This document shows, in pieces, positions 18,869-58,795 of a stretch of 64,000 bases of DNA. Numbering within the stretch: position 1 is the stretch's first letter; the number at the start of each line of letters is the position of its first letter. This DNA is from Candidatus Saccharimonadales bacterium (GTDB taxonomy: Bacteria; Patescibacteriota; Saccharimonadia; Saccharimonadales; JACQNP01). The notes under the pieces were generated by a model. That model was given only the letters and a program-made list of their open reading frames with translations. It was not told the origin of the DNA and did no database searches. A program made the translations under genes and the position numbers. The stretch lies in contig JBGSIS010000005.1 of NCBI GenBank assembly GCA_041742395.1, forward strand, positions 18,696 to 82,695, read 5' to 3'.

Positions 18869-20005
18869 CTAGACGATTACCTTAGAAATCTCGTTAACTA
18901 ATCTTTCGTCTAATACAGACGGGATTATCATATTTGGATTTGGATCTGTGACTAAATTAGCTATTGTTTCTGCAGCGGCAATTTTGTGTTGATCAGTGAT
19001 TTCTGTGACTCTATTATCTAGAGCACCCCTAAAAATGCCAGGAAAGGCGAGTGCATTATTAACTTGATTTGGGAAGTCACTTCTTCCAGTTGCCATAACT
19101 GCAACACCTGATTTTTTGGCCTCTTTTGGTAAAATCTCAGGTTCTGGGTTAGCCATTGCAAAAATTATAGGATCCTTGGACATCAATTTAACCAATCCAC
19201 CATTGAGAAGCTTGCCCTTAGAAACTCCTATAAAAATATCTGCATTTTCGAGAGCTTTAGATAAATCTCCATCAATGTTATTTGGGTTAGTAAACTCGAG
19301 TAATTTAATTTTTTCGCTATTCAGGTCAGTTCGGTTTTTAGTCACAATGCCTTTACTATCAACTGCAATTATTTCTGGATTTGCGTAAAGATTGAGTAGC
19401 TTTATTATCGAAGTTCCAGCTGCACCTGCACCTACTATCACAATTTTTGTCTTACTCAAATCTCTTCCAGTTATTTTTGCGGCATTAATCAGACCAGCTA
19501 GAACTACAATGGCAGTTCCGTGTTGATCATCGTGAAACACCGGTATTTCTAATTCTTTTTTTAGTATATCTTCAATTTCAAAACATTGCGGAGCGGCAAT
19601 ATCTTCAAGATTAATGCCTCCGAAACTTGGTGCAATAGCTTTGATGGTGTTTATTATCTCATCAACAGTATGAACATCAAGAATTATTGGTACAGCATCA
19701 ATATCTGCAAATTGTTTAAAAAGCATAGCTTTACCTTCCATTACTGGTAATGCACCATAAGGGCCTATATTGCCTAATCCTAGAACAGCTGAACCATCGC
19801 TAATTACAGCTACATTATTATTTAGCCAAGTGTAATTTCTTGATTCTTTAGGGTTAGTCGCTAAAAGTGTCGATACACTGGCTACACCTGGAGTGTAGTA
19901 TGTACTTAACTTATCCTGTGTGTCAGGCTTATCTTTAAGTTTAAGGGATATTTTACCTTTCATCTGTTTGTGTTTTTTTAGTGCTTCTTCTCCAAAATTT
20001 ATCAT
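18869..20005 (-). CDS. NAD(P)-dependent malic enzyme (short form)
   Basis: YYTPGVA...[31 protein letters not shown] and the Rossmann GAGAAG are present. Size is 378 aa. Confidence 0.85.
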
Positions 20006-21375: not shown

Positions 21376-23925
21376 TTATTTCTTAAACCAATTTTTTAAA
21401 TCTTGAAGGTTGCTATCTTTCCAGTTTATTTGCCATTCCATAGATTCAAGACCTTGACTAATTGATCTATCAAGAGATGAATTCCTGAGAGGTTCAAAGA
21501 AATTAGAGTATTCTTTTATGAACTTTTTATCACTAAAGACGTTGGCAGCATAAAGAGGGAATCTATAGAAACTTAAGTCACTTCCAATGTTCTTTTCAAG
21601 CCAAGCCCAGTTTTCTTTTAGCCAAGCCCAAGTAATTTTTTTAGCGAATCGATTCGAGAAACTATAAACTACCCAATAACTTATGTCCTGTAGACGCACA
21701 TTATCAGTTTTAATTAGTCCTAGAGCTTTTGTTATAAGTTTTTCATCTTTGAATCCAGTTAGTGCTGAAGCTAATACTGTCTTTTCTTCACTTAAAGAAC
21801 TTTCCGCATACATTTTAAATATTTTACTATAAGTTTTTTCGTCATTATTTTGTCTGACGGCAGTAGAAATAACTAATGACCTGAAATCAGGTGAAATATC
21901 TTTTATGGACTTGGATTTATCGAATACTTCCATAGCGTTCTTAATTGACGTTTTTTCGTCAGCACTGCTCGATAAAGCTAATATTGTAGGCCTAAGGAGA
22001 AGATCGAAATAGTCGTCTTTGTTTGAAGGATCCCAGCCAAGTCTTTCGAGCTGTAATGACGTTAAGTTAACAATATAAGGTTTCATAGCCTCACGTAAAT
22101 CCTCGTCATCCATAACTTGCCTGATAGATCCAATTGACATTGCAATTACATCCCAAACGGCGTTATTGTCCTCGTTTGAATAATTTTTAAGGAAGTTTAA
22201 TATACTTACCGCTGGCGTAATACCTGCTTTACTTACTTCAATTAAATCACTTAAAAGACCAAGCCTATCTATTGGCGAGAGTTTTCCAGCTTTAACGTTT
22301 GAACCGAGATCTTTCAATAAGCTATCTGAATAATTAACTCTGTAAAATCCCGTTTGCCCTTGATTCAACTTAACAAAATTTGCAGCTTTAAGTTCTTGTT
22401 CTTTTTTATCAAAAAGCTCAGGATATGCACTATTGTTTGATTCAAGTGCTATTGGCCATAATTTATCTGAATGTTTGGAGTGTTTTGGATTTACATAAAA
22501 CCGTGTTTGCTTGATTGATATTTTGTCATCTAACTTATTAACGCTTACCAAAGGAAAGCCACTAAATGAAGTCCAAGAGTGCATGAATTGTTTAACAGGT
22601 TTATTAGAAACATCTTCTAACGCTTGCCATAAATCTATTGTGTCAGTATTCTTGAATGAATGTATTTTAAGATAATGACCTAAGCCTTGTCTGAATAGTT
22701 CAGCCCCTAGATATCCATTTAGCATGTGGATAGCACTAGCTCCTTTAGAATAACTAATTGTGTCAAAAATAGTTCTTATTTCATCAGGGTGTTTTATCGC
22801 AACTTCTATTGGATGGGTGTTTTCTAGAGCATCTAATTTTAAGGCTCTGAGTTGTTCATCAACTGTAAATTGAGTCCACATCTGCCATTCTGGAAAAATG
22901 TGATCAACAGCCATATATTCAATCCAGCTAGCAAATCCTTCATTAAGCCAAAGATCAGTCCACCACCTCATAGTAACTAGATTGCCAAACCATTGGTGAG
23001 CTAGCTCGTGAGCAACTACCATAGCTACATATTGTTTGGTTGGAAGCGAAGTATTGTTCGGATCTACTAACATGCACTGTTCTCGATATGTAATAAGTCC
23101 CCAATTTTCCATTGCCCCAGAAGCAAAATCTGGTAAAGCTATCATGTCGCATTTTTCAAGAGGATATTTAATATCAAAATAATCTTCGTAGAAATCTAGG
23201 AATTTTACCGCAACATCCAATGAAAAGTCAGTGAACTGTACATTATCGGGTGTAGCGTATGCTCTGACTTTTATACCCGACTTTGTTTTCGACTCTTTGT
23301 ATTCAATTTCTCCGTAGACAAATGCCAATAAATAAGTCGACATAATTGGCGTTTCTTCAAAAGTAGTCATCTTGATATTTTTTGTAATTTTTTCAGATTC
23401 TATAGGAGTATTAGATAAAACAGTTTCTTTTGAAGGTGTGACCATTGTTAATTTAAATATCGCTTTTGCTTCTGGTTCATCTATACAAGGAAAAACTTCT
23501 CTAGCGTGATGACTTTCAAATTGGGTTGCGATAAGTTGCTTATTAGCATCTAGATGCTTAAATTCAGAAGGGTAAATACCATTCATATTTTTAGAAATTC
23601 TGCCTTTAAAATCAATTTCAACTTCGTACTCCCCGGAATAAACATTTTCACCTAGGTGAATCCTTGCTTCATCATAACCGCTGTGGGTATTTACTCTTAA
23701 GACTTTTAGCTCTACCTTAGTACCTTTAGATAGTTTGAAGACTTTAGCATTACTAATATTAAGATCTTTTTGATGAAAGGTTAGCCTTTTGGACGGTTTA
23801 CCGATTTTTATACCAGATATTTTTATTTTTCCTTCAAATGTCATTTTGTCTCTGTCTGGACTAAGTTTTAACTCATATCTAGACGGTTTAAATTCACAAT
23901 ATAAACGTTTTACATTTTTTCTCAT
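21376..23925 (-). CDS. pepN: Aminopeptidase N (M1 family)
   Basis: HEXXH-(18)-E reads VVAHELAHQWFGNLVTMRWWTDLWLNEGFASW, and the GAMEN motif is present. Size is 849 aa. Confidence 0.9.
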   Translation of the reverse strand: MRKNVKRLYCEFKPSRYELKLSPDRDKMTFEGKIKISGIKIGKPSKRLTFHQKDLNISNAKVFKLSKGTKVELKVLRVNTHSGYDEARIHLGENVYSGEYEVEIDFKGRISKNMNGIYPSEFKHLDANKQLIATQFESHHAREVFPCIDEPEAKAIFKLTMVTPSKETVLSNTPIESEKITKNIKMTTFEETPIMSTYLLAFVYGEIEYKESKTKSGIKVRAYATPDNVQFTDFSLDVAVKFLDFYEDYFDIKYPLEKCDMIALPDFASGAMENWGLITYREQCMLVDPNNTSLPTKQYVAMVVAHELAHQWFGNLVTMRWWTDLWLNEGFASWIEYMAVDHIFPEWQMWTQFTVDEQLRALKLDALENTHPIEVAIKHPDEIRTIFDTISYSKGASAIHMLNGYLGAELFRQGLGHYLKIHSFKNTDTIDLWQALEDVSNKPVKQFMHSWTSFSGFPLVSVNKLDDKISIKQTRFYVNPKHSKHSDKLWPIALESNNSAYPELFDKKEQELKAANFVKLNQGQTGFYRVNYSDSLLKDLGSNVKAGKLSPIDRLGLLSDLIEVSKAGITPAVSILNFLKNYSNEDNNAVWDVIAMSIGSIRQVMDDEDLREAMKPYIVNLTSLQLERLGWDPSNKDDYFDLLLRPTILALSSSADEKTSIKNAMEVFDKSKSIKDISPDFRSLVISTAVRQNNDEKTYSKIFKMYAESSLSEEKTVLASALTGFKDEKLITKALGLIKTDNVRLQDISYWVVYSFSNRFAKKITWAWLKENWAWLEKNIGSDLSFYRFPLYAANVFSDKKFIKEYSNFFEPLRNSSLDRSISQGLESMEWQINWKDSNLQDLKNWFKK

Positions 23926-29331: not shown

Positions 29332-30675
29332 ATGGCAAAGCAAAAAATTAAATATCAGTGTAATAGTTGTGGAGCAATCTCTTTGACATGGAGCGGAAAA
29401 TGCTATAGCTGTGGCGAGTGGAATACGCTAAGTGAAAAAATTGATGAACAAGATATAAAGTCTTTTGCCAGTAGTGGGAACAAGCTAATAATTCAATCAT
29501 TGAAAGAATCAACAAAAAAAGATCACAAACGACTGGTAAGTAATCTTAATGAATTCGATGAAATGATTGGAGGGGGAATTGTAAGGGGTAGTGTAAACCT
29601 AATTGCAGGTCAACCGGGTATCGGAAAAAGTACTTTGCTTCTTCAGATTGCATTTAATTTGTCTAAGAACTACAAGGTATTATATGTTAGTGGTGAAGAG
29701 TCACTGCATCAGATTGGTATGCGAGCAAAGAGATTGGGTGTACTGAGCGATAGTATTGAAATTGCTACAAGTAATGTGGCTGATGACATAGCTAAGAGTA
29801 TTTTAGAATCATCCTATGATTTGATAATTGTAGATTCTATTCAGACTATAAGTTGTAATGGCGTAAGTTCTGTAGCTGGATCCGTTAGTCAAATAACCAA
29901 TAGCACGAACATGTTGACATACTCAGCAAAAAAATCAGACACAGCACTTATAATTGTTGGACATGTAACCAAAGAAGGATCAATCGCTGGACCAAAAGTA
30001 TTAGAGCATTTAGTGGATGTGGTGCTTCAGATCGAAGGTGACAGGTATGGCGGTTTCAAAATTATTCGACCAATAAAAAACCGTTTTGGCTCAACTAGCG
30101 AATCAGCAATTTTTGAAATGACAGAAAAGGGAATGGAACCAGTAGATAACCCGTCTGCTGCATTACTAGCCGAAAGACAAGTTACTGATGGTTCAGTCGT
30201 TATGGCCACTATAGAGGGCTCAAGACCATTATTGGTCGAAGTTCAAGCCTTAGTTAACAAAACAAGCTATGGCTATCCAAAAAGGGCTGCTAGTGGCATT
30301 GATCTAAATAGATTAAATCTCCTAGTAGCAATGCTAGAAAAGCGCACCAAAATTGATTTATCTGATAAAGATATATATATCAATATTGTTGGAGGCATAA
30401 AGTTGAACGAACCTGCTAGTGACTTGGCTATTTGTATGGCAATTGCTTCTGCATCAAAATCGATGATGCTAAAGAAGAATCTTGTAGTATTTGGTGAAAT
30501 TGGACTTTCTGGTGAGATTCGTCATGTTCCTCATATTGATAAAAGGATAAAAGAAGCCACTAAACTTGGTTTTGATGGAGCAGCTGGTCCAATATCCACT
30601 AAAAAGATTAATAAATACCTTGGTTTTAGAAATATAAAAGAAATACTAAATAATTTGTTAGAGAAAGATTTATAA
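29332..30675 (+). CDS. radA: DNA repair protein RadA/Sms
   Basis: C4 zinc finger (CNSCGAISLTWSGKCYSCGEW), Walker A GQPGIGKSTLLLQ, KNRFG and the Lon-like C-terminal domain are present. Confidence 0.95.
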   Translation: MAKQKIKYQCNSCGAISLTWSGKCYSCGEWNTLSEKIDEQDIKSFASSGNKLIIQSLKESTKKDHKRLVSNLNEFDEMIGGGIVRGSVNLIAGQPGIGKSTLLLQIAFNLSKNYKVLYVSGEESLHQIGMRAKRLGVLSDSIEIATSNVADDIAKSILESSYDLIIVDSIQTISCNGVSSVAGSVSQITNSTNMLTYSAKKSDTALIIVGHVTKEGSIAGPKVLEHLVDVVLQIEGDRYGGFKIIRPIKNRFGSTSESAIFEMTEKGMEPVDNPSAALLAERQVTDGSVVMATIEGSRPLLVEVQALVNKTSYGYPKRAASGIDLNRLNLLVAMLEKRTKIDLSDKDIYINIVGGIKLNEPASDLAICMAIASASKSMMLKKNLVVFGEIGLSGEIRHVPHIDKRIKEATKLGFDGAAGPISTKKINKYLGFRNIKEILNNLLEKDL

Positions 30676-34486: not shown

Positions 34487-35719
34487 ATGAGTAAAATGAC
34501 TTTATCTGAAGAACTATCTTGGCGCGGTTTTATAAAACAAACAACAATAAAGGATATTAAGGAGTTAGATAACAAAAAAATCATCTTTTATCACGGCTAT
34601 GACGCATCCGCTGACTCTCAAACTATAGGTAACTTAGCAGCTATGATGTTTGATAAAGTCTTTTTAAGGCATGGACATAAGGCCGTAATACTCGCAGGAG
34701 GCGCTACCAGTATGATCGGCGATCCAGGAGGTAAGGATAAAGAAAGACCAATGCAAAGTGAAGAAGTAATTTCGTTCAACGTTTCATGTGCAGAAAAACA
34801 ACTAAAACAAGTTTTTAAAGACAATGATTTTACTCTAGTAAATAACATTGAATGGTTTAAAAGCATGAACGTAATAGATTATTTACGTGGCGTCGGCAAA
34901 CACTTTAGTATGACTCCATTAATTCAAAGAGACTATATTGCAAAAAGGATCGGAGAAGATGGTGATGGAATTAGCTATACTGAGTTTAGCTATACCATCT
35001 TACAGGGATATGATTTCCTATATTTATATAGAAAATATGGAGTTAATTTACAGTTAGCTGGAAGTGATCAATGGGGTAATAGTTTGTCAGGAATTGACTT
35101 AATAAGAAGAGTTGAAGGTGTGGAAGTTGATGTAATTACTCTTCCACTAGTCATCAATAAGACTACTGGAAAAAAATTTGGTAAAAGTGAAGATGGTGCA
35201 GTTTGGCTTGATGAAAATAAAACAAGTGTTTTTAAATTCTATCAATTTTGGTTAAATATTGATGATGAAGGTTGTGAAGAATATTTAAAGATTTACACTG
35301 AATTAGATAAAAAAGAAATAGATTCTGTCTTGAAAGAGTTTGAGAATAATAGATCATCTCGTTATGCTCAGAAAGTTTTAGCTAAAGAAATTACATCTCT
35401 ATTACATGGGAGGGACAGGGCATTATCTGCTGAAAAGGTTAGTAACGTGCTTTTTGGTGGGGAAAATTTCATGGATCTTAATGATAATGAACTAGAACTG
35501 CTTTCTAAGGAATTGGCTACGGTAAAATATCTCGATGATATTATCGAGTTAATAGTGTCGGCTAACCTAGCAACCAGTAAAACTGAAGCGAGAAATCTAG
35601 TTAATTCCGGAGCTATAAATCTTAATGGAAATAAAATATCTCTGGATGAATATGGTTTTATTGAAGGTATTAATTTACTAAAGAAAGGCAAAAACAGCTT
35701 CGTTTTGGTTAAAAAATAA
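34487..35719 (+). CDS. tyrS: Tyrosyl-tRNA synthetase with a non-canonical HIGH motif
   Basis: The class I TyrRS core (GYDASADS..., GGATSMIGDPGGK), KMSKS-like KFGKS and a C-terminal S4-like domain are present. The HIGH position reads TIGN. Confidence 0.85.
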   Translation: MSKMTLSEELSWRGFIKQTTIKDIKELDNKKIIFYHGYDASADSQTIGNLAAMMFDKVFLRHGHKAVILAGGATSMIGDPGGKDKERPMQSEEVISFNVSCAEKQLKQVFKDNDFTLVNNIEWFKSMNVIDYLRGVGKHFSMTPLIQRDYIAKRIGEDGDGISYTEFSYTILQGYDFLYLYRKYGVNLQLAGSDQWGNSLSGIDLIRRVEGVEVDVITLPLVINKTTGKKFGKSEDGAVWLDENKTSVFKFYQFWLNIDDEGCEEYLKIYTELDKKEIDSVLKEFENNRSSRYAQKVLAKEITSLLHGRDRALSAEKVSNVLFGGENFMDLNDNELELLSKELATVKYLDDIIELIVSANLATSKTEARNLVNSGAINLNGNKISLDEYGFIEGINLLKKGKNSFVLVKK

Positions 35720-54983: not shown

Positions 54984-55193
54984 ATGGAACATAGAAGAAT
55001 TAGGATAGCACCCCTACCAGACACTCGCGAATTCAACTTAGAACCTATAAGGTCGGTTGGCAGTAAGATTGGTTCTTTAGTCTTAAGACCAATTATGGAA
55101 ATTAGAGATATTGCCCATGAATTGAGTATTGGTTTAGGTAATCCAGTCATGAAGCCAGAGGACGTAAAACCCAAATCAGAAGATACTAGATAA
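54984..55193 (+). CDS. Possible small ORF (69 aa) in the fusA-tuf spacer; the coding status is uncertain
   Basis: GGAAA lies 7 nt before the ATG. An antisense ORF of equal length overlaps it (54965..55174). No similarity recognised. Confidence 0.25.
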   Translation: MEHRRIRIAPLPDTREFNLEPIRSVGSKIGSLVLRPIMEIRDIAHELSIGLGNPVMKPEDVKPKSEDTR

Positions 55194-56510: not shown

Positions 56511-56540
56511 AAAAGAGTCGGGAGAAATCTCGACTCTTTT
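56511..56540 (+). terminator. Rho-independent (bidirectional-type) terminator after tuf
   Basis: Perfect 10-bp arms AAAAGAGTCG/CGACTCTTTT with a 10-nt loop. Confidence 0.7.
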
Positions 56541-56550
56541 CATATCTTTG

Positions 56551-56578
56551 TTTACATGGTAAACTATGTTAGTAAAAT
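56551..56578 (+). promoter_or_regulatory. Sigma70-like promoter for the S10 operon (-35 TTTACA, 16 nt, -10 TAAAAT)
   Basis: TTTACA at 56551-56556 and TAAAAT at 56573-56578. A leader of about 85 nt containing a GTGATG...CATCAC long-range pairing and SD AAAGGAG precedes rpsJ. Confidence 0.5.
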
Positions 56579-56662: not shown

Positions 56663-57013
56663 ATGGCAGAAGCCAAAAAAACTGAATCAACAAAACCAAC
56701 TGCCTCAACTAAGCAGAGAATAAGAATACGTTTAAAGGCATATGATCATAAGGTTATCGATCAGTCTGCAAAGCAAATTGTAGATACTGCTCTTAGAACA
56801 GGTGCAACTATTGCTGGACCAATACCTCTACCTACAAAAAAGACTTTGTATACTGTAGTTAAAAGCCCTCATGTTTACAAAAAAGGACGTGAACAGTTCG
56901 AAATGCGCGTTCATAAACGTTTAATTGACGTGCTTGATCCAACTCCAAAGACTATTGATTCTCTTATGAACCTTAGTTTACCTGCTGGCTGCGATGCTGA
57001 AATTAAGATGTAA
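56663..57013 (+). CDS. rpsJ: 30S ribosomal protein S10 with an N-terminal extension of about 18 aa
   Basis: [43 protein letters not shown] is present. Confidence 0.95.
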
Positions 57014-57021
57014 TTAATAAT

Positions 57022-57729
57022 ATGTCTACAGAAGGTTTTAATAGTTCAGAACCAGATAGACCAATTTTGACCGACGATGTCTTGCATGAGATTGATTGTA
57101 GGGCGATTTTCGCTACACAGAATTTGGCTGAAACACTAATTATATATGGTGGCATAGAGCCACTAGTAGAAAGATATACCCCATTCAAGTTACCAGAGAG
57201 AATACATCGAGATATATACAGTATATTACGATTGCCTGATGATGATCGCTCAAATATTAACTATGATGACGATAAGAGAGTATTAAGAGATGGTCTAATT
57301 GCCGGATTTATTTTGGGCAGGAGACTGATCAAGAGGACTCAATACCCCGGCATGACAACATATCAACACGGTGTACTTCAAGACTTAAGACGAGCGACTT
57401 CACGTCCTGGCATTGATGTAGACGATTATATTTATCCCGGGAATAGATTTGCGGATAAAATTCTTTCAAAGCTGGAAAACTCGGAAATCCACGACCTATC
57501 ATATCCATGTGGAAACGATGTATTTAGAAAAGAAACATTCATGAGGGCTTCAAGTTATTTAGGTGGATCAGCAATGAGCTATTTAGTAGCAAAGTTAACC
57601 AGAAATATTGATTTTGAAACAGAAGCATATTTTTCTGCTAATGCGAACAAGCTCGCAAGAGATATTAAAGAAGAGAGTGCTGGCCGAAAAAAGCTAACGC
57701 CACTTACACACCTTATTCGTGGAAAATAA
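57022..57729 (+). CDS. Hypothetical protein (235 aa) inserted between rpsJ and rplC
   Basis: Clean ORF starting 8 nt after the rpsJ stop, with no SD and no recognisable motif. Confidence 0.5.
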   Translation: MSTEGFNSSEPDRPILTDDVLHEIDCRAIFATQNLAETLIIYGGIEPLVERYTPFKLPERIHRDIYSILRLPDDDRSNINYDDDKRVLRDGLIAGFILGRRLIKRTQYPGMTTYQHGVLQDLRRATSRPGIDVDDYIYPGNRFADKILSKLENSEIHDLSYPCGNDVFRKETFMRASSYLGGSAMSYLVAKLTRNIDFETEAYFSANANKLARDIKEESAGRKKLTPLTHLIRGK

Positions 57730-57738
57730 TGTTATAAT
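57730..57738 (+). promoter_or_regulatory. Extended -10 (TGtTATAAT) 8 nt upstream of the ATG at 57747; a candidate leaderless promoter
   Basis: TGTTATAAT at 57730-57738, a perfect TGnTATAAT. Confidence 0.4.
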
Positions 57739-57746
57739 TTATGCTA

Positions 57747-58025
57747 ATGGCTAAAAAACAAAAAATAAGTAAAAAAACAGAGTCTGACGGCGCCTACTTT
57801 TTAAAAATAGTACTATATTTAATTCTTGGTTCTCAATGGTTAAGACTAGTAGACCCAGAATTAACAACCCAGATACCAATACCGTTTGGCTTTATGCTTG
57901 GAATACTATTCGCCTCTCATGATCATTTCAAGATTGATCGTAAAATTGAGTATGCTGTACTTACTATTGGAGCATTCGTAGGTTTTTGGCTACAAACAGG
58001 TTTCTATATTCAATTATTAAAGTAG
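57747..58025 (+). CDS. Hypothetical small membrane protein (about 92 aa; the alternative ATG is at 57741)
   Basis: A Lys-rich N-terminus followed by two or three predicted TM helices. Confidence 0.4.
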   Translation: MAKKQKISKKTESDGAYFLKIVLYLILGSQWLRLVDPELTTQIPIPFGFMLGILFASHDHFKIDRKIEYAVLTIGAFVGFWLQTGFYIQLLK

Positions 58026-58183
58026 AATAAACAACATATTGACAGAAGTTAAATATTTGTGCTAATCTGTTATGGTATATCAAAATTTGAGTACAGATAA
58101 CTTGGTGAATTTGCAGGTTTACAAGATAGAAACCGCTTAGTTACCAAGAATTTTAATGTCTGTCTCTAAAACTAAGGAGAACT

Positions 58184-58795
58184 ATGAAAGCGCTAATCAC
58201 GAGAAAGGTAGGCATGACAAGTATCATCAGTGAAGATGGTGCCACTCAAGCTATTACTTTGCTTTCCGCTAGTCCGTGTACAATTACACGTATTAAGTCT
58301 CACGAATCAGACGGCTACAATGCCGTACAACTCGGATTCGAGACTAAAAAGCTTGGGAAAGCACAAACTGGCCAATTTAAACCAGCAAACGTACAACCAA
58401 AAATAGTAAAAGAGTTTAGATTAGACGAGATAGATGAAACACTAAAGGTCGGCGAATTGATTTCAGCCGATGTTTTTAATATTGGCGACATTGTTGATGT
58501 TACCGGAACTAGCAAAGGTAAAGGTTGGGCGGGAACTATCAAAAGACATAATTTCCATAGACAGCGTGCTACGCACGGTGGTAAAGGAAATACTAGAAAA
58601 GTAGGATCTATTGGTTCAATGTATCCTCAGAAGATTTTTAAAGGTAAGAAGATGGCTGGACAAATGGGTGACGAGCGCGTAACAGTAAAGAACCTTAAGG
58701 TTGCACTTATTGATACGGAGCTTGGTGTTATTGGTATTTCGGGAGCTGTTCCTGGTCCTAGAAAAGGTATTGTACTTATAAGGGAGAAGAAATAA
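58184..58795 (+). CDS. rplC: 50S ribosomal protein L3
   Basis: MKALITRKVGMTSI is present. RBS AAGGAGA. Confidence 0.95.
   Translation: MKALITRKVGMTSIISEDGATQAITLLSASPCTITRIKSHESDGYNAVQLGFETKKLGKAQTGQFKPANVQPKIVKEFRLDEIDETLKVGELISADVFNIGDIVDVTGTSKGKGWAGTIKRHNFHRQRATHGGKGNTRKVGSIGSMYPQKIFKGKKMAGQMGDERVTVKNLKVALIDTELGVIGISGAVPGPRKGIVLIREKK

What the first reader, a model, noticed from the sequence alone, without database searches (positions are those of the whole stretch)
57022..58025. Two unknown genes inserted between rpsJ and rplC in the S10 ribosomal-protein operon
The rpsJ-rplC junction is one of the most conserved adjacencies in bacteria. Here it is interrupted by about 1.15 kb. The insert encodes a 235-aa soluble protein with no recognisable domain, starting 8 nt after the rpsJ stop without an SD, so its translation is probably coupled to S10. 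Next comes a roughly 92-aa multi-TM protein with its own extended -10 (TGTTATAAT) and an apparently leaderless ATG. After that there is a 158-nt spacer before rplC.

Their GC content and codon style look native, so this is not obviously horizontal cargo. Being co-transcribed with ribosomal proteins implies co-regulation with translation capacity. The pair could be a novel ribosome-associated factor plus a membrane partner, or a selfish or regulatory module that has colonised the operon.
Basis: seen in the sequence. Interest (0 to 1): 0.7.

Follow-up and report, generated by a model that had tools for sequence, protein, structure and literature searches.

The report
Split S10 operon in Saccharibacteria
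In Saccharibacteria the usually fused rpsJ-rplC gene pair is always separated by a conserved small membrane-protein gene with its own leaderless promoter. It is also separated by a slot holding unrelated accessory genes (here an orphan 235-aa protein) and by an undescribed structured RNA leader in front of rplC.

Summary
In detail: two clean ORFs lie between rpsJ and rplC. They are not a pair and not a recent insert.

- **ORF2 (57747-58025, 92 aa, three hydrophobic helices).** It belongs to an uncharacterised family found in at least 251 Saccharibacteria species genomes. In all 80 loci examined it sits between rpsJ and rplC. A TGnTATAAT element 6-8 nt before its ATG and the absence of an SD are conserved, so the leaderless reading is supported.
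- **ORF1 (57022-57729).** It occupies a hypervariable slot between rpsJ and ORF2, holding 0-6 genes (NUDIX, HAD, M29 peptidase, cupin, many orphans). Its family has only about 6 sequence clusters among billions of proteins. It is fast-evolving but under purifying selection, and starts 6-11 nt after the rpsJ stop, so translation is probably coupled.
- **The 158-nt spacer.** It holds a strongly conserved promoter (TTGACA-18-TGnTAATCT) and a covariation-supported hairpin plus U-tract leader that stays with rplC. This is probably a new ribosomal-protein leader or attenuator.

Published Tn-seq calls the positionally equivalent gene in Southlakia non-essential. The biochemical functions of ORF1 and ORF2 remain unknown.

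The parts
56511..56540 (+). Terminator-like hairpin after tuf (context)
   Evidence: 13-bp stem followed by a T-rich tail; inverted repeat I3.
56551..56578 (+). Promoter-like site upstream of rpsJ (TTTACA-16-TAAAAT)
   Evidence: consensus match only. The TM7x rpsJ upstream region works as a promoter in Southlakia (PMC10633639).
56663..57013 (+). rpsJ (ribosomal protein S10)
   Evidence: PF00338, E 5e-36.
57022..57729 (+). ORF1: a 235-aa, predicted all-alpha, lineage-restricted protein that occupies the variable slot after rpsJ
   Evidence: family of about 6 clusters. (pN/pS 0.29). (pLDDT 47.5, helices only). (starts 6-11 nt after the rpsJ stop in all three lineages, no SD).
57730..57738 (+). 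Extended -10 promoter element TGTTATAAT of ORF2
   Evidence: Conserved position and sequence across loci.
57747..58025 (+). ORF2: a 92-aa conserved membrane protein with three hydrophobic helices and an invariant H-x-H-F-x-x-D-R-K-I-E loop, translated from a leaderless ATG
   Evidence: conservation. (fixed synteny). (AF2 pLDDT 85.6). (no structural relative).
58039..58068 (+). rplC promoter: TTGACA (58039-58044), 18-nt spacer, TG (58060-58061), TAATCT (58063-58068)
   Evidence: the same motif in 55/76 unique spacers. It moves with rplC when extra DNA is present.
58074..58183 (+). Predicted rplC 5' leader, from the inferred start at the conserved GGTAT to the rplC ATG. The SD AAGGAG lies at 58174-58179.
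   Evidence: The transcription start is inferred from the promoter position and has not been measured.
58097..58160 (+). Conserved hairpin (P1 CUUGGU/ACCAAG, internal covarying pairs, GGU/ACC, apical stem) followed by a U tract
   Evidence: 54.8 bits, E 3e-10, the only hit in the 64-kb window. (covariation).
58184..58795 (+). rplC (ribosomal protein L3), first gene of the rplC-rplD-rplW-rplB... cluster

Best explanation
The window comes from a Saccharibacteria (CPR/Patescibacteria) genome. In this phylum, rpsJ-rplC is not a junction inside one operon. It is a conserved three-part region.

1. **A permissive cargo slot directly after rpsJ.** Here it holds ORF1, a fast-evolving, lineage-restricted, all-alpha protein. 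ORF1 is probably transcribed with rpsJ and translated by termination-reinitiation coupling. I infer that it is an accessory gene using a highly expressed transcript, not a ribosome factor.
2. **ORF2, an ancestral phylum-wide small membrane protein.** It is expressed from its own extended -10 promoter as a leaderless mRNA. No terminator and only about 11 nt separate its stop codon from the rplC promoter, so its transcript must run into the rplC leader.
3. **A near-consensus sigma-70 promoter plus a structured leader** (a long hairpin followed by a U tract) that belongs to rplC. I infer that the leader acts as an autoregulatory attenuator or translational operator for the rplC-rplD... operon, analogous to the L4-controlled S10 leader of E. 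coli.

Shown: gene reality, synteny, promoter-motif conservation, RNA covariation. Inferred: transcription start sites, coupling, attenuation, the effector protein, and the biochemical roles of ORF1 and ORF2. My best guess for ORF2 is a non-essential envelope or ion-related membrane protein with a metal- or partner-binding cytoplasmic H-x-H/D/E loop.
For: **Synteny**
- All loci with data show tuf-rpsJ-[11-3557 nt]-ORF2-[118-1574 nt]-rplC-rplD.
- 251 GTDB species genomes carry an ORF2 relative, and all but one listed record are labelled Saccharibacteria or Patescibacteria.

**Slot variability**
- The slot holds 0-6 ORFs. NUDIX occurs in 20/76 loci, and HAD, M29 peptidase, cupin and DUF3048 also occur. 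There are 60 singleton ORF clusters (many short ORFs, not verified as genes), and about 11 loci have no cargo ORF of 50 aa or more.

**ORF1**
- Its family has 5 clusters among 5.8 billion proteins and 3 hits among 1.84 billion representatives.
- pN/pS is 0.29. dN is 0.28, against 0.004 for S10, 0.028 for L3 and 0.043 for ORF2.
- It starts 6-11 nt after the rpsJ stop in three lineages, with no SD.

**ORF2 promoter**
- A -10-like hexamer lies 3-12 nt before the ATG (mode 6-7) in 59/81 loci, 35 of them with TGn. An SD-like motif occurs in only 2/81. Controls are rplC 11/75 and 56/75, and rpsJ 8/39 and 37/39.
- A TGaTATAAT-type rpsJ promoter from TM7x drives expression in Southlakia.

**ORF2 protein**
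- 23 positions are at least 95% conserved in 121 sequences, and dN/dS is about 0.03.

**rplC promoter**
- 55/76 unique spacers carry CAACAnATTGACAG-(18)-TGnTAATCT...GGTAT.

**Leader RNA**
- In an alignment not fitted to the structure, 91.8% of cells pair against 81.3% in shuffles. 88 cells change on both sides against 25, and slid controls give 30-54%.
- In the model-fitted alignment of 75 sequences, 15/18 pairs have compensatory changes.
- The covariance model hits once per locus in 73/83 sources at E<1e-3, always on the + strand between ORF2 and rplC.
- In all 10 loci with 500 nt or more inserted between ORF2 and rplC, the motif sits next to rplC.
Against: - No transcriptome, 5'-end or 3'-end data exist for this organism. 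Both transcription starts and the attenuation are inferred from motifs.
- The leader does not match any Rfam family. My model does not match the E. coli S10 leader or rRNA operon, so the effector protein is unknown.
- The U tract could simply terminate upstream transcripts.
- A few lineages (L075, L084) keep the promoter but lack the hairpin.
- About a quarter of loci did not pass my strict -10 criterion for ORF2. In L021 the ATG is only 11 nt from the rpsJ stop.
- Neither protein has a functional assignment. The ORF1 model is unusable and ORF2 has no structural or profile relative.
- The Tn-seq gene SEML1_0475 is matched to ORF2 by position and size only, not by sequence. That study's table does not flag it as a core family.
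Confidence: 0.7

Rival explanations
1. ORF1 and ORF2 form a functional pair: a soluble ribosome-associated factor plus its membrane partner, inserted together and co-regulated with ribosomal proteins.
For: The two genes are adjacent, with a 17-nt gap that is conserved in the closest relative. Both lie between ribosomal-protein genes, and neither has an SD.
Against: - ORF2 occurs in 80/80 loci. ORF1-family genes occur only in the window, L001/L002 and L003/L004.
- About 11 loci have no cargo at all, and the others carry unrelated genes.
- ORF1 evolves about 6 times faster than ORF2 at non-synonymous sites.
- ORF2 has its own promoter.
Confidence: 0.04
2. A selfish, mobile or defence module (transposon, toxin-antitoxin or anti-phage system) has colonised the operon.
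For: Slot content is hypervariable between species and includes genes on the opposite strand. ORF1 is an orphan.
Against: - There are no flanking direct or inverted repeats.
- No transposase or integrase appeared among the ten slot proteins scanned against Pfam; most slot ORFs were not scanned.
- There is no PADLOC or PHROG match.
- GC is native.
- ORF2 is vertically conserved.

Variability is better explained by recombination between the highly conserved flanks in naturally competent bacteria. Competence is shown in PMC10633639; the link to this slot is my inference.
Confidence: 0.05
3. ORF2 is functionally tied to translation or secretion, and its position reflects that function. It could be a ribosome-membrane tether or a translocon accessory subunit, like secY and secE, which are also embedded in ribosomal clusters.
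For: - Synteny with ribosomal genes is universal.
- The N-terminal tail is Lys/Arg-rich and predicted cytoplasmic, and the charged loop HDHFKIDRKIE is invariant.
- The transcript necessarily runs into the rplC leader.
Against: - The positional counterpart SEML1_0475 is called non-essential at all three time points, with 21-26 insertions, while S10 and L3 are essential.
- TM7x already has an annotated SecG.
- There is no sequence or fold similarity to any Sec, YidC or RAMP component. One of 32 members gives a weak RAMP4 hit (E 0.021), which I treat as noise.
Confidence: 0.15
4. The conserved hairpin plus U tract is only the intrinsic terminator of the rpsJ/ORF2 transcription unit, not a regulatory leader of rplC.
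For: The stem is followed by 4-5 nearly invariant U residues. No other terminator-like site lies between rpsJ and rplC.
Against: - It lies downstream of the conserved rplC promoter.
- It stays next to rplC, not ORF2, in 10/10 loci with large inserts.
- Its internal loops and apical sequence (AACAGAGGUAGAAACC) are far more conserved than a plain terminator needs.

A dual role is possible.
Confidence: 0.12
5. One or both ORFs are untranslated chance ORFs.
For: Neither has an SD and neither matches a known family.
Against: - ORF1 keeps the same length and frame at 64% nucleotide identity, with pN/pS 0.29. More distant homologues exist at 31-35% identity.
- ORF2 has more than 280 clusters, invariant residues and dN/dS 0.03.
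Confidence: 0.02

Closest known systems
E. coli S10 operon leader (L4-mediated attenuation and translational control; my own knowledge of the Lindahl/Zengel work)
   Same: It is a long irregular hairpin followed by a U tract, in the 5' untranslated region of the transcript that encodes L3, L4, L23, L2 and so on. It has its own strong promoter.
   Different: It sits upstream of rplC rather than rpsJ. My covariance model finds nothing on the sense strand of the E. coli rpsJ upstream region (best 6.4 bits, antisense). The E. coli leader is not in Rfam 15 either, so no formal family exists to join. The effector and mechanism are untested.
Curated ribosomal-protein leader RNAs in Rfam (for example the L10, L20 and S15 leaders)
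   Same: It is a cis-acting, structured, lineage-specific RNA in front of a ribosomal-protein operon, and it is supported by covariation.
   Different: No Rfam family matches the spacer even at E up to 10. The motif appears restricted to Saccharibacteria.
Leaderless mRNAs (common in Actinobacteria, Deinococcus and archaea; my own knowledge)
   Same: The -10 element ends 6-8 nt before an ATG start codon and there is no SD.
   Different: Here the leaderless architecture of a single gene is conserved across a whole phylum, inside the ribosomal gene cluster. About 7 of 56 ORFs in this window look similar, so it is a recurrent mode in this genome but not the default.
secY and secE: membrane-protein genes embedded in ribosomal-protein clusters
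   Same: ORF2 is a membrane-protein gene held in fixed synteny with ribosomal-protein genes.
   Different: There is no homology. The positional counterpart is non-essential. ORF2 has its own promoter.
Integration or variability hotspots flanked by conserved core genes
   Same: Highly conserved flanks (rpsJ and ORF2/rplC) bracket unrelated, rapidly turning-over genes.
   Different: No integrase, tRNA or repeats are present. The slot lies inside the most conserved gene cluster in bacteria, and its cargo is mostly small housekeeping-like hydrolases and orphans.

Membership tests
Canonical S10 operon (rpsJ-rplC-rplD...) | rpsJ is immediately followed by rplC (32-nt gap in E. coli) | tested here: not met
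   The gap is 1170 nt in the window. It is interrupted in 80/80 Saccharibacteria loci. The E. coli gap was read.
Canonical S10 operon (rpsJ-rplC-rplD...) | The downstream gene order rplC-rplD-rplW-rplB-rpsS-rplV-rpsC... is kept | tested here: met
Leaderless mRNA gene | A -10 promoter element ends about 6-8 nt upstream of the start codon | tested here: met
   TATAAT at 57733-57738 and ATG at 57747. Found in 59/81 relatives, with a modal gap of 6-7 nt.
Leaderless mRNA gene | No Shine-Dalgarno sequence; ATG start codon | tested here: met
   An SD-like 4-mer occurs in 2/81 loci, against 56/75 for rplC and 37/39 for rpsJ.
Leaderless mRNA gene | The mapped transcription start coincides with the start codon | not testable with these tools
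   Needs 5'-RACE or dRNA-seq.
Ribosomal-protein autoregulatory leader RNA | Located in the 5' UTR of a ribosomal-protein operon, downstream of its promoter | tested here: met
   The promoter is at 58039-58068 and the hairpin at 58097-58160, 23 nt before the rplC ATG. It travels with rplC.
Ribosomal-protein autoregulatory leader RNA | Conserved secondary structure supported by compensatory changes | tested here: met
Ribosomal-protein autoregulatory leader RNA | Binds a protein encoded in the operon; may mimic its rRNA site | tested here: inconclusive
   Binding cannot be tested here. The model finds no match in the E. coli rrnB operon (best 8.3 bits). No Saccharibacteria 23S sequence was available.
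Any Rfam 15 family | Covariance-model match at or near the gathering score | tested here: not met
SecG (translocon subunit) | Pfam/NCBIfam SecG match and a two-TM topology; the gene is otherwise missing from the genome | tested here: not met
   No match. There are three hydrophobic segments. TM7x has an annotated secG.
Pfam YfhO (PF09586) | Score above the gathering cut-off of 28.5 bits | tested here: not met
   12/32 members give hits below the 28.5-bit cut-off; the four inspected score about 13 bits against profile positions 238-323 of 835. I treat this as transmembrane-composition noise.
Mobile element or defence island | Flanking repeats, recombinase genes, or matches to defence or phage protein families | tested here: not met

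The most novel reading that the evidence does not exclude
ORF2 is part of the control circuit of the ribosomal-protein operon and not just a neighbour. Its leaderless mRNA is initiated by 70S ribosomes and reads straight into the rplC leader. The 3' end of the ORF2 coding sequence (57983-58010) can pair with the 3' half of the leader hairpin (58123-58150).

On this reading, ribosome occupancy of ORF2 would decide whether the terminator-like hairpin forms. The membrane-protein gene would then double as a ribosome-availability sensor for rplC-operon transcription.

The evidence does not exclude this but gives it little support. The complementarity is stronger than in controls (-18.1 against about -15.6 kcal/mol). 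However, it does not covary locus by locus (own against foreign leaders, p = 0.71). In 10 loci extra genes separate ORF2 from the leader.
Probability: 0.06. Interest if true: 0.85.

Novelty: new variant of a known kind. Interest (0 to 1): 0.55.

Why it matters
The rpsJ-rplC adjacency is among the most conserved gene orders in bacteria. A whole phylum in which it is systematically broken shows that even this cluster can be re-wired.

The locus offers three concrete handles for work in a group that has only recently become genetically tractable:
- **A candidate new ribosomal-protein leader RNA.** Regulators of the S10 cluster are, to my knowledge, essentially unknown outside Gammaproteobacteria.
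- **A phylum-specific, highly conserved small membrane protein.** It has an invariant His/Asp/Glu loop and no fold relative.
- **A natural permissive slot behind a strong promoter.** This could explain how reduced-genome epibionts sample accessory genes, and it could serve as an expression site for genetic tools.

The finding also gives comparative evidence that extended -10 and leaderless expression are used in Saccharibacteria.

Tried and rejected
1. **Family searches.** Pfam, NCBIfam, PHROGs and PADLOC found nothing for either protein. The sub-threshold YfhO, Acyl_transf_3 and EmrE hits for ORF2 relatives are treated as transmembrane noise.
3. **ORF1 structure.** pLDDT is 47.5, so no fold search was attempted.
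4. **A larger post-rpsJ family.** I tested whether the 224-aa slot proteins of L016 and L068 are distant ORF1 relatives. hhalign gives probability 0.6%, so I rejected this.
5. **Outer helix P0.** An outer helix enclosing the leader hairpin appears in the window's minimum-energy fold. It is not supported across loci: longest helix 6.69 against 6.18 in shuffles.
6. **Antiterminator pairing.** Pairing between the ORF2 3' end and the leader shows no locus-specific covariation.
7. **rRNA mimicry and similarity to the E. coli S10 leader.** The model finds no hit in the E. coli rrnB operon or on the sense strand of the rpsJ upstream region.
8. **SecG-substitute idea.** TM7x has an annotated secG.
9. 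**Mobile-element scars.** None were found.
10. **Literature.** No paper was found on leaderless genes or ribosomal leaders in Saccharibacteria or Patescibacteria.
Full report
**Observation**

rpsJ lies at 56663-57013, a 235-aa ORF at 57022-57729, a 94-aa ORF at 57741-58025, and rplC at 58184-58795. ORF1 begins 8 nt after the rpsJ stop with no Shine-Dalgarno sequence. TGTTATAAT lies at 57730-57738, and the second in-frame ATG of ORF2 (57747) follows it by 8 nt. Neither protein matches any Pfam, NCBIfam, PHROG or PADLOC model. GC content is native: 0.384 and 0.33 against 0.367 for the window.

**Origin of the window**

All relatives of these genes come from records labelled Candidatus Saccharibacteria, Saccharimonadales or Patescibacteria. 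One MAG is labelled Nevskiaceae (L081), which is probably a binning error.

**The two genes have very different histories**

ORF2 has more than 280 homologue clusters at 50-92% identity. A pattern scan of one genome per GTDB species found relatives in 251 genomes.

In every locus I could examine, the order is tuf - rpsJ - [11 to 3557 nt] - ORF2 - [118 to 1574 nt, median 196] - rplC - rplD. This covers the 80 GTDB loci plus nine metagenomic ones.

ORF1 is nearly an orphan:
- one 63%-identical relative, in the same arrangement
- three 31-35%-identical proteins of 196-200 aa, found with a profile search
- one further 222-aa protein, found in an exhaustive HMMER search of 1.84 billion representatives

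**The slot between rpsJ and ORF2**

The interval holds anything from nothing to six ORFs on either strand. About 11 of 76 distinct loci, for example L021, L025, L035 and L073, have no cargo ORF of 50 aa or more.

A NUDIX hydrolase is the most frequent resident (20 loci). HAD hydrolases, M29 aminopeptidase, cupin, DUF3048 and IDI-like NUDIX proteins also occur. There are 60 singleton ORF clusters, many of them short ORFs that I did not verify as genes.

ORF1 is therefore one of many unrelated occupants of a variable slot. The likely ancestral state is rpsJ-ORF2-rplC.

ORF1 is nevertheless a real gene:
- The window and L001 copies have the same length at 64% nucleotide identity.
- pN is 0.23 against a saturated pS of 0.79.
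- Its dN is 6 to 70 times that of its neighbours.

In all three lineages it starts 6-11 nt after the rpsJ stop with no SD. No promoter-like or terminator-like site intervenes. Co-transcription with rpsJ and termination-reinitiation coupling is the most economical reading, but it is an inference.

The AlphaFold model is all-helical but unreliable (pLDDT 47.5). No repeats or mobility genes flank the gene.

**ORF2**

The family is 83-118 aa long. It has a Lys/Arg-rich N-terminus and three hydrophobic segments. In 121 sequences, 23 positions are at least 95% conserved. These include W31, P44, P46 and the loop H58-x-H60-F61-x-x-D64-R65-K66-I67-E68 between the second and third helices. dN/dS against the closest relative is about 0.03.

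**The leaderless promoter**

- In 59 of 81 distinct upstream regions, a -10-like hexamer lies 3-12 nt before the ATG. The modal gap is 6-7 nt (40 of the 59), and 35 carry the TGn extension.
- Only 2 of 81 have an SD-like tetramer.
- For the rplC starts the figures are 11/75 and 56/75. For the rpsJ starts they are 8/39 and 37/39.

Homologue N-termini align to the ATG at 57747, not 57741.

A TM7x rpsJ promoter fragment containing TTGATA...TGATATAAT drives a resistance gene in Southlakia (PMC10633639). The fragment carrying this motif type is therefore active in the phylum.

Leaderless-looking starts are not unique to ORF2. About 7 of 56 ORFs in the window show them.

**The 158-nt spacer is not empty**

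Directly after the ORF2 stop comes CAACAnATTGACAG, then 18 nt, then TGnTAATCT, then GGTAT. This motif is present in 55 of 76 distinct spacers. In the window the coordinates are:
- TTGACA 58039-58044
- TG 58060-58061
- TAATCT 58063-58068
- inferred start near 58074-58076

Downstream lies a conserved hairpin with four parts:
- an outer stem, CUUGGUG/CACCAAG
- covarying internal pairs
- GGU/ACC
- an apical stem with a conserved AACAGAGGUAGAAACC region

A nearly invariant U tract follows it.

**Covariation in the hairpin**

| Measure | MAFFT alignment, 46 sequences | Model-fitted alignment, 75 sequences |
|---|---|---|
| Cells paired | 91.8% | 92.1% |
| Cells paired in shuffles | 81.3% | 77.9% |
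| Cells changed on both sides | 88 | 201 |
| Same, in shuffles | 25 | 56 |
| Pairs with compensatory changes | 11 of 18 | 15 of 18 |

With the 3' partners slid by 1-3 columns, pairing falls to 30-54% in the MAFFT alignment.

A covariance model finds exactly one copy per locus in 73 of 83 sources (E<1e-3). The copy is always on the + strand between ORF2 and rplC. It is the only hit in the 64-kb window (58097-58160, 54.8 bits).

**The leader belongs to rplC**

In all ten loci where 500 nt or more separates ORF2 from rplC, the promoter and hairpin stay next to rplC. They therefore belong to rplC and not to ORF2. The hairpin ends a median of 44 nt before the rplC ATG.

It matches no Rfam family. 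Rfam also lacks the E. coli S10 leader. My model matches neither that leader nor the E. coli rRNA operon.

**How the locus most likely works**

Three expression units are packed between rpsJ and rplC.

1. rpsJ has its own promoter and carries whatever sits in the slot. Here that is ORF1, translated by coupling.
2. ORF2 is transcribed from an extended -10 promoter as a leaderless mRNA. Only about 11 nt and no hairpin separate its stop codon from the rplC -35 element. Its transcript must therefore continue into the rplC leader.
3. The rplC-rplD... operon starts at its own near-consensus promoter. Its structured leader, a hairpin plus U tract, resembles in architecture the L4-responsive attenuator of the E. 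coli S10 leader. That comparison rests on my own knowledge of the Lindahl/Zengel work.

I therefore propose autoregulatory attenuation or translational repression by an operon-encoded protein, with L4 or L3 as the obvious candidates. This step is inferred, not shown.

**What ORF2 does**

The function is unknown. Three points argue against an essential ribosome or translocon role.
- In Southlakia, the hypothetical gene between S10 and L3 is SEML1_0475: 321 nt, with gaps of 148 and 171 nt. It tolerates 21-26 transposon insertions and is called non-essential at all three time points. S10 and L3 are essential. I matched this gene to ORF2 by position and size only.
- TM7x has an annotated SecG.
- ORF2 has its own promoter.

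The invariant His/Asp/Glu-rich cytoplasmic loop suggests a metal-binding or partner-binding site in a small, probably oligomeric, membrane protein. I rate an envelope or ion-homeostasis role as more likely than a ribosome-tethering role, with low confidence in either.

**Leads that failed**

- An outer helix around the leader is not supported across loci.
- Pairing between the ORF2 3' end and the leader 3' half is stronger than in controls but does not covary.
- A proposed distant relationship between ORF1 and other slot proteins of about 224 aa is not supported.

**Verdict**

The leaderless ORF2 and the probably coupled ORF1 hold up. The ideas of a novel pair and of a colonising module do not.

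What is there is a phylum-wide re-organisation of the S10 cluster. It has a conserved uncharacterised membrane protein, a hypervariable cargo slot and a previously undescribed candidate ribosomal-protein leader RNA. It is a new variant of known kinds of system and of moderate interest.

Noticed in passing
window 58039-58183: A strongly conserved promoter (TTGACA-18-TGnTAATCT) and a covariation-supported hairpin plus U-tract leader lie upstream of rplC. They match no Rfam family and look like a candidate new ribosomal-protein leader specific to Saccharibacteria.
   Followed up: yes
window 54984-55193: A 69-aa ORF lies between fusA and tuf. It is conserved only in the closest relative (70% identity in L001). 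Other Saccharibacteria carry unrelated ORFs of 157 or 238 aa there. This appears to be a second variable slot inside the str/S10 supercluster.
   Followed up: partly
window 18869-20005(-), 21376-23925(-), 29332-30675(+), 34487-35719(+): Other ORFs have a TAnnnT hexamer 6-8 nt before a candidate ATG. Three of these four also lack an SD-like motif (29332-30675 has one), which suggests that leaderless expression recurs in this genome (about 7/56 ORFs).
   Followed up: no
L005 4510-4983, L007, L010, L013 and 16 other loci: A NUDIX hydrolase of about 155 aa is the commonest slot resident (20/76 loci). In the loci I inspected (L005, L006, L007, L010) it sits directly upstream of ORF2. It may be an older, semi-conserved partner of the locus.
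   Followed up: partly
L075 and L084, spacer between ORF2 and rplC: These loci keep the conserved rplC promoter, but the model finds no hairpin. A different GC-rich hairpin appears in its place, which suggests leader replacement in one lineage.
   Followed up: no
L081 (DATLCF010000002.1): This 557-kb contig is labelled Nevskiaceae (Gammaproteobacteria) but carries the Saccharibacteria-type ORF2-leader-rplC locus. It is probably a mislabelled or contaminated MAG.
   Followed up: no
window 57983-58010 vs 58123-58150: A 28-nt inverted repeat (75% complementary) links the 3' end of the ORF2 coding sequence with the 3' half of the leader hairpin. The complementarity recurs across loci but without covariation, so it may just reflect the conserved G-F-W codons meeting the conserved CCAAG.
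   Followed up: yes
window 56511-56578: A clean terminator-like hairpin after tuf is followed at once by a promoter-like site for rpsJ. tuf and rpsJ therefore look like separate transcription units.
   Followed up: no
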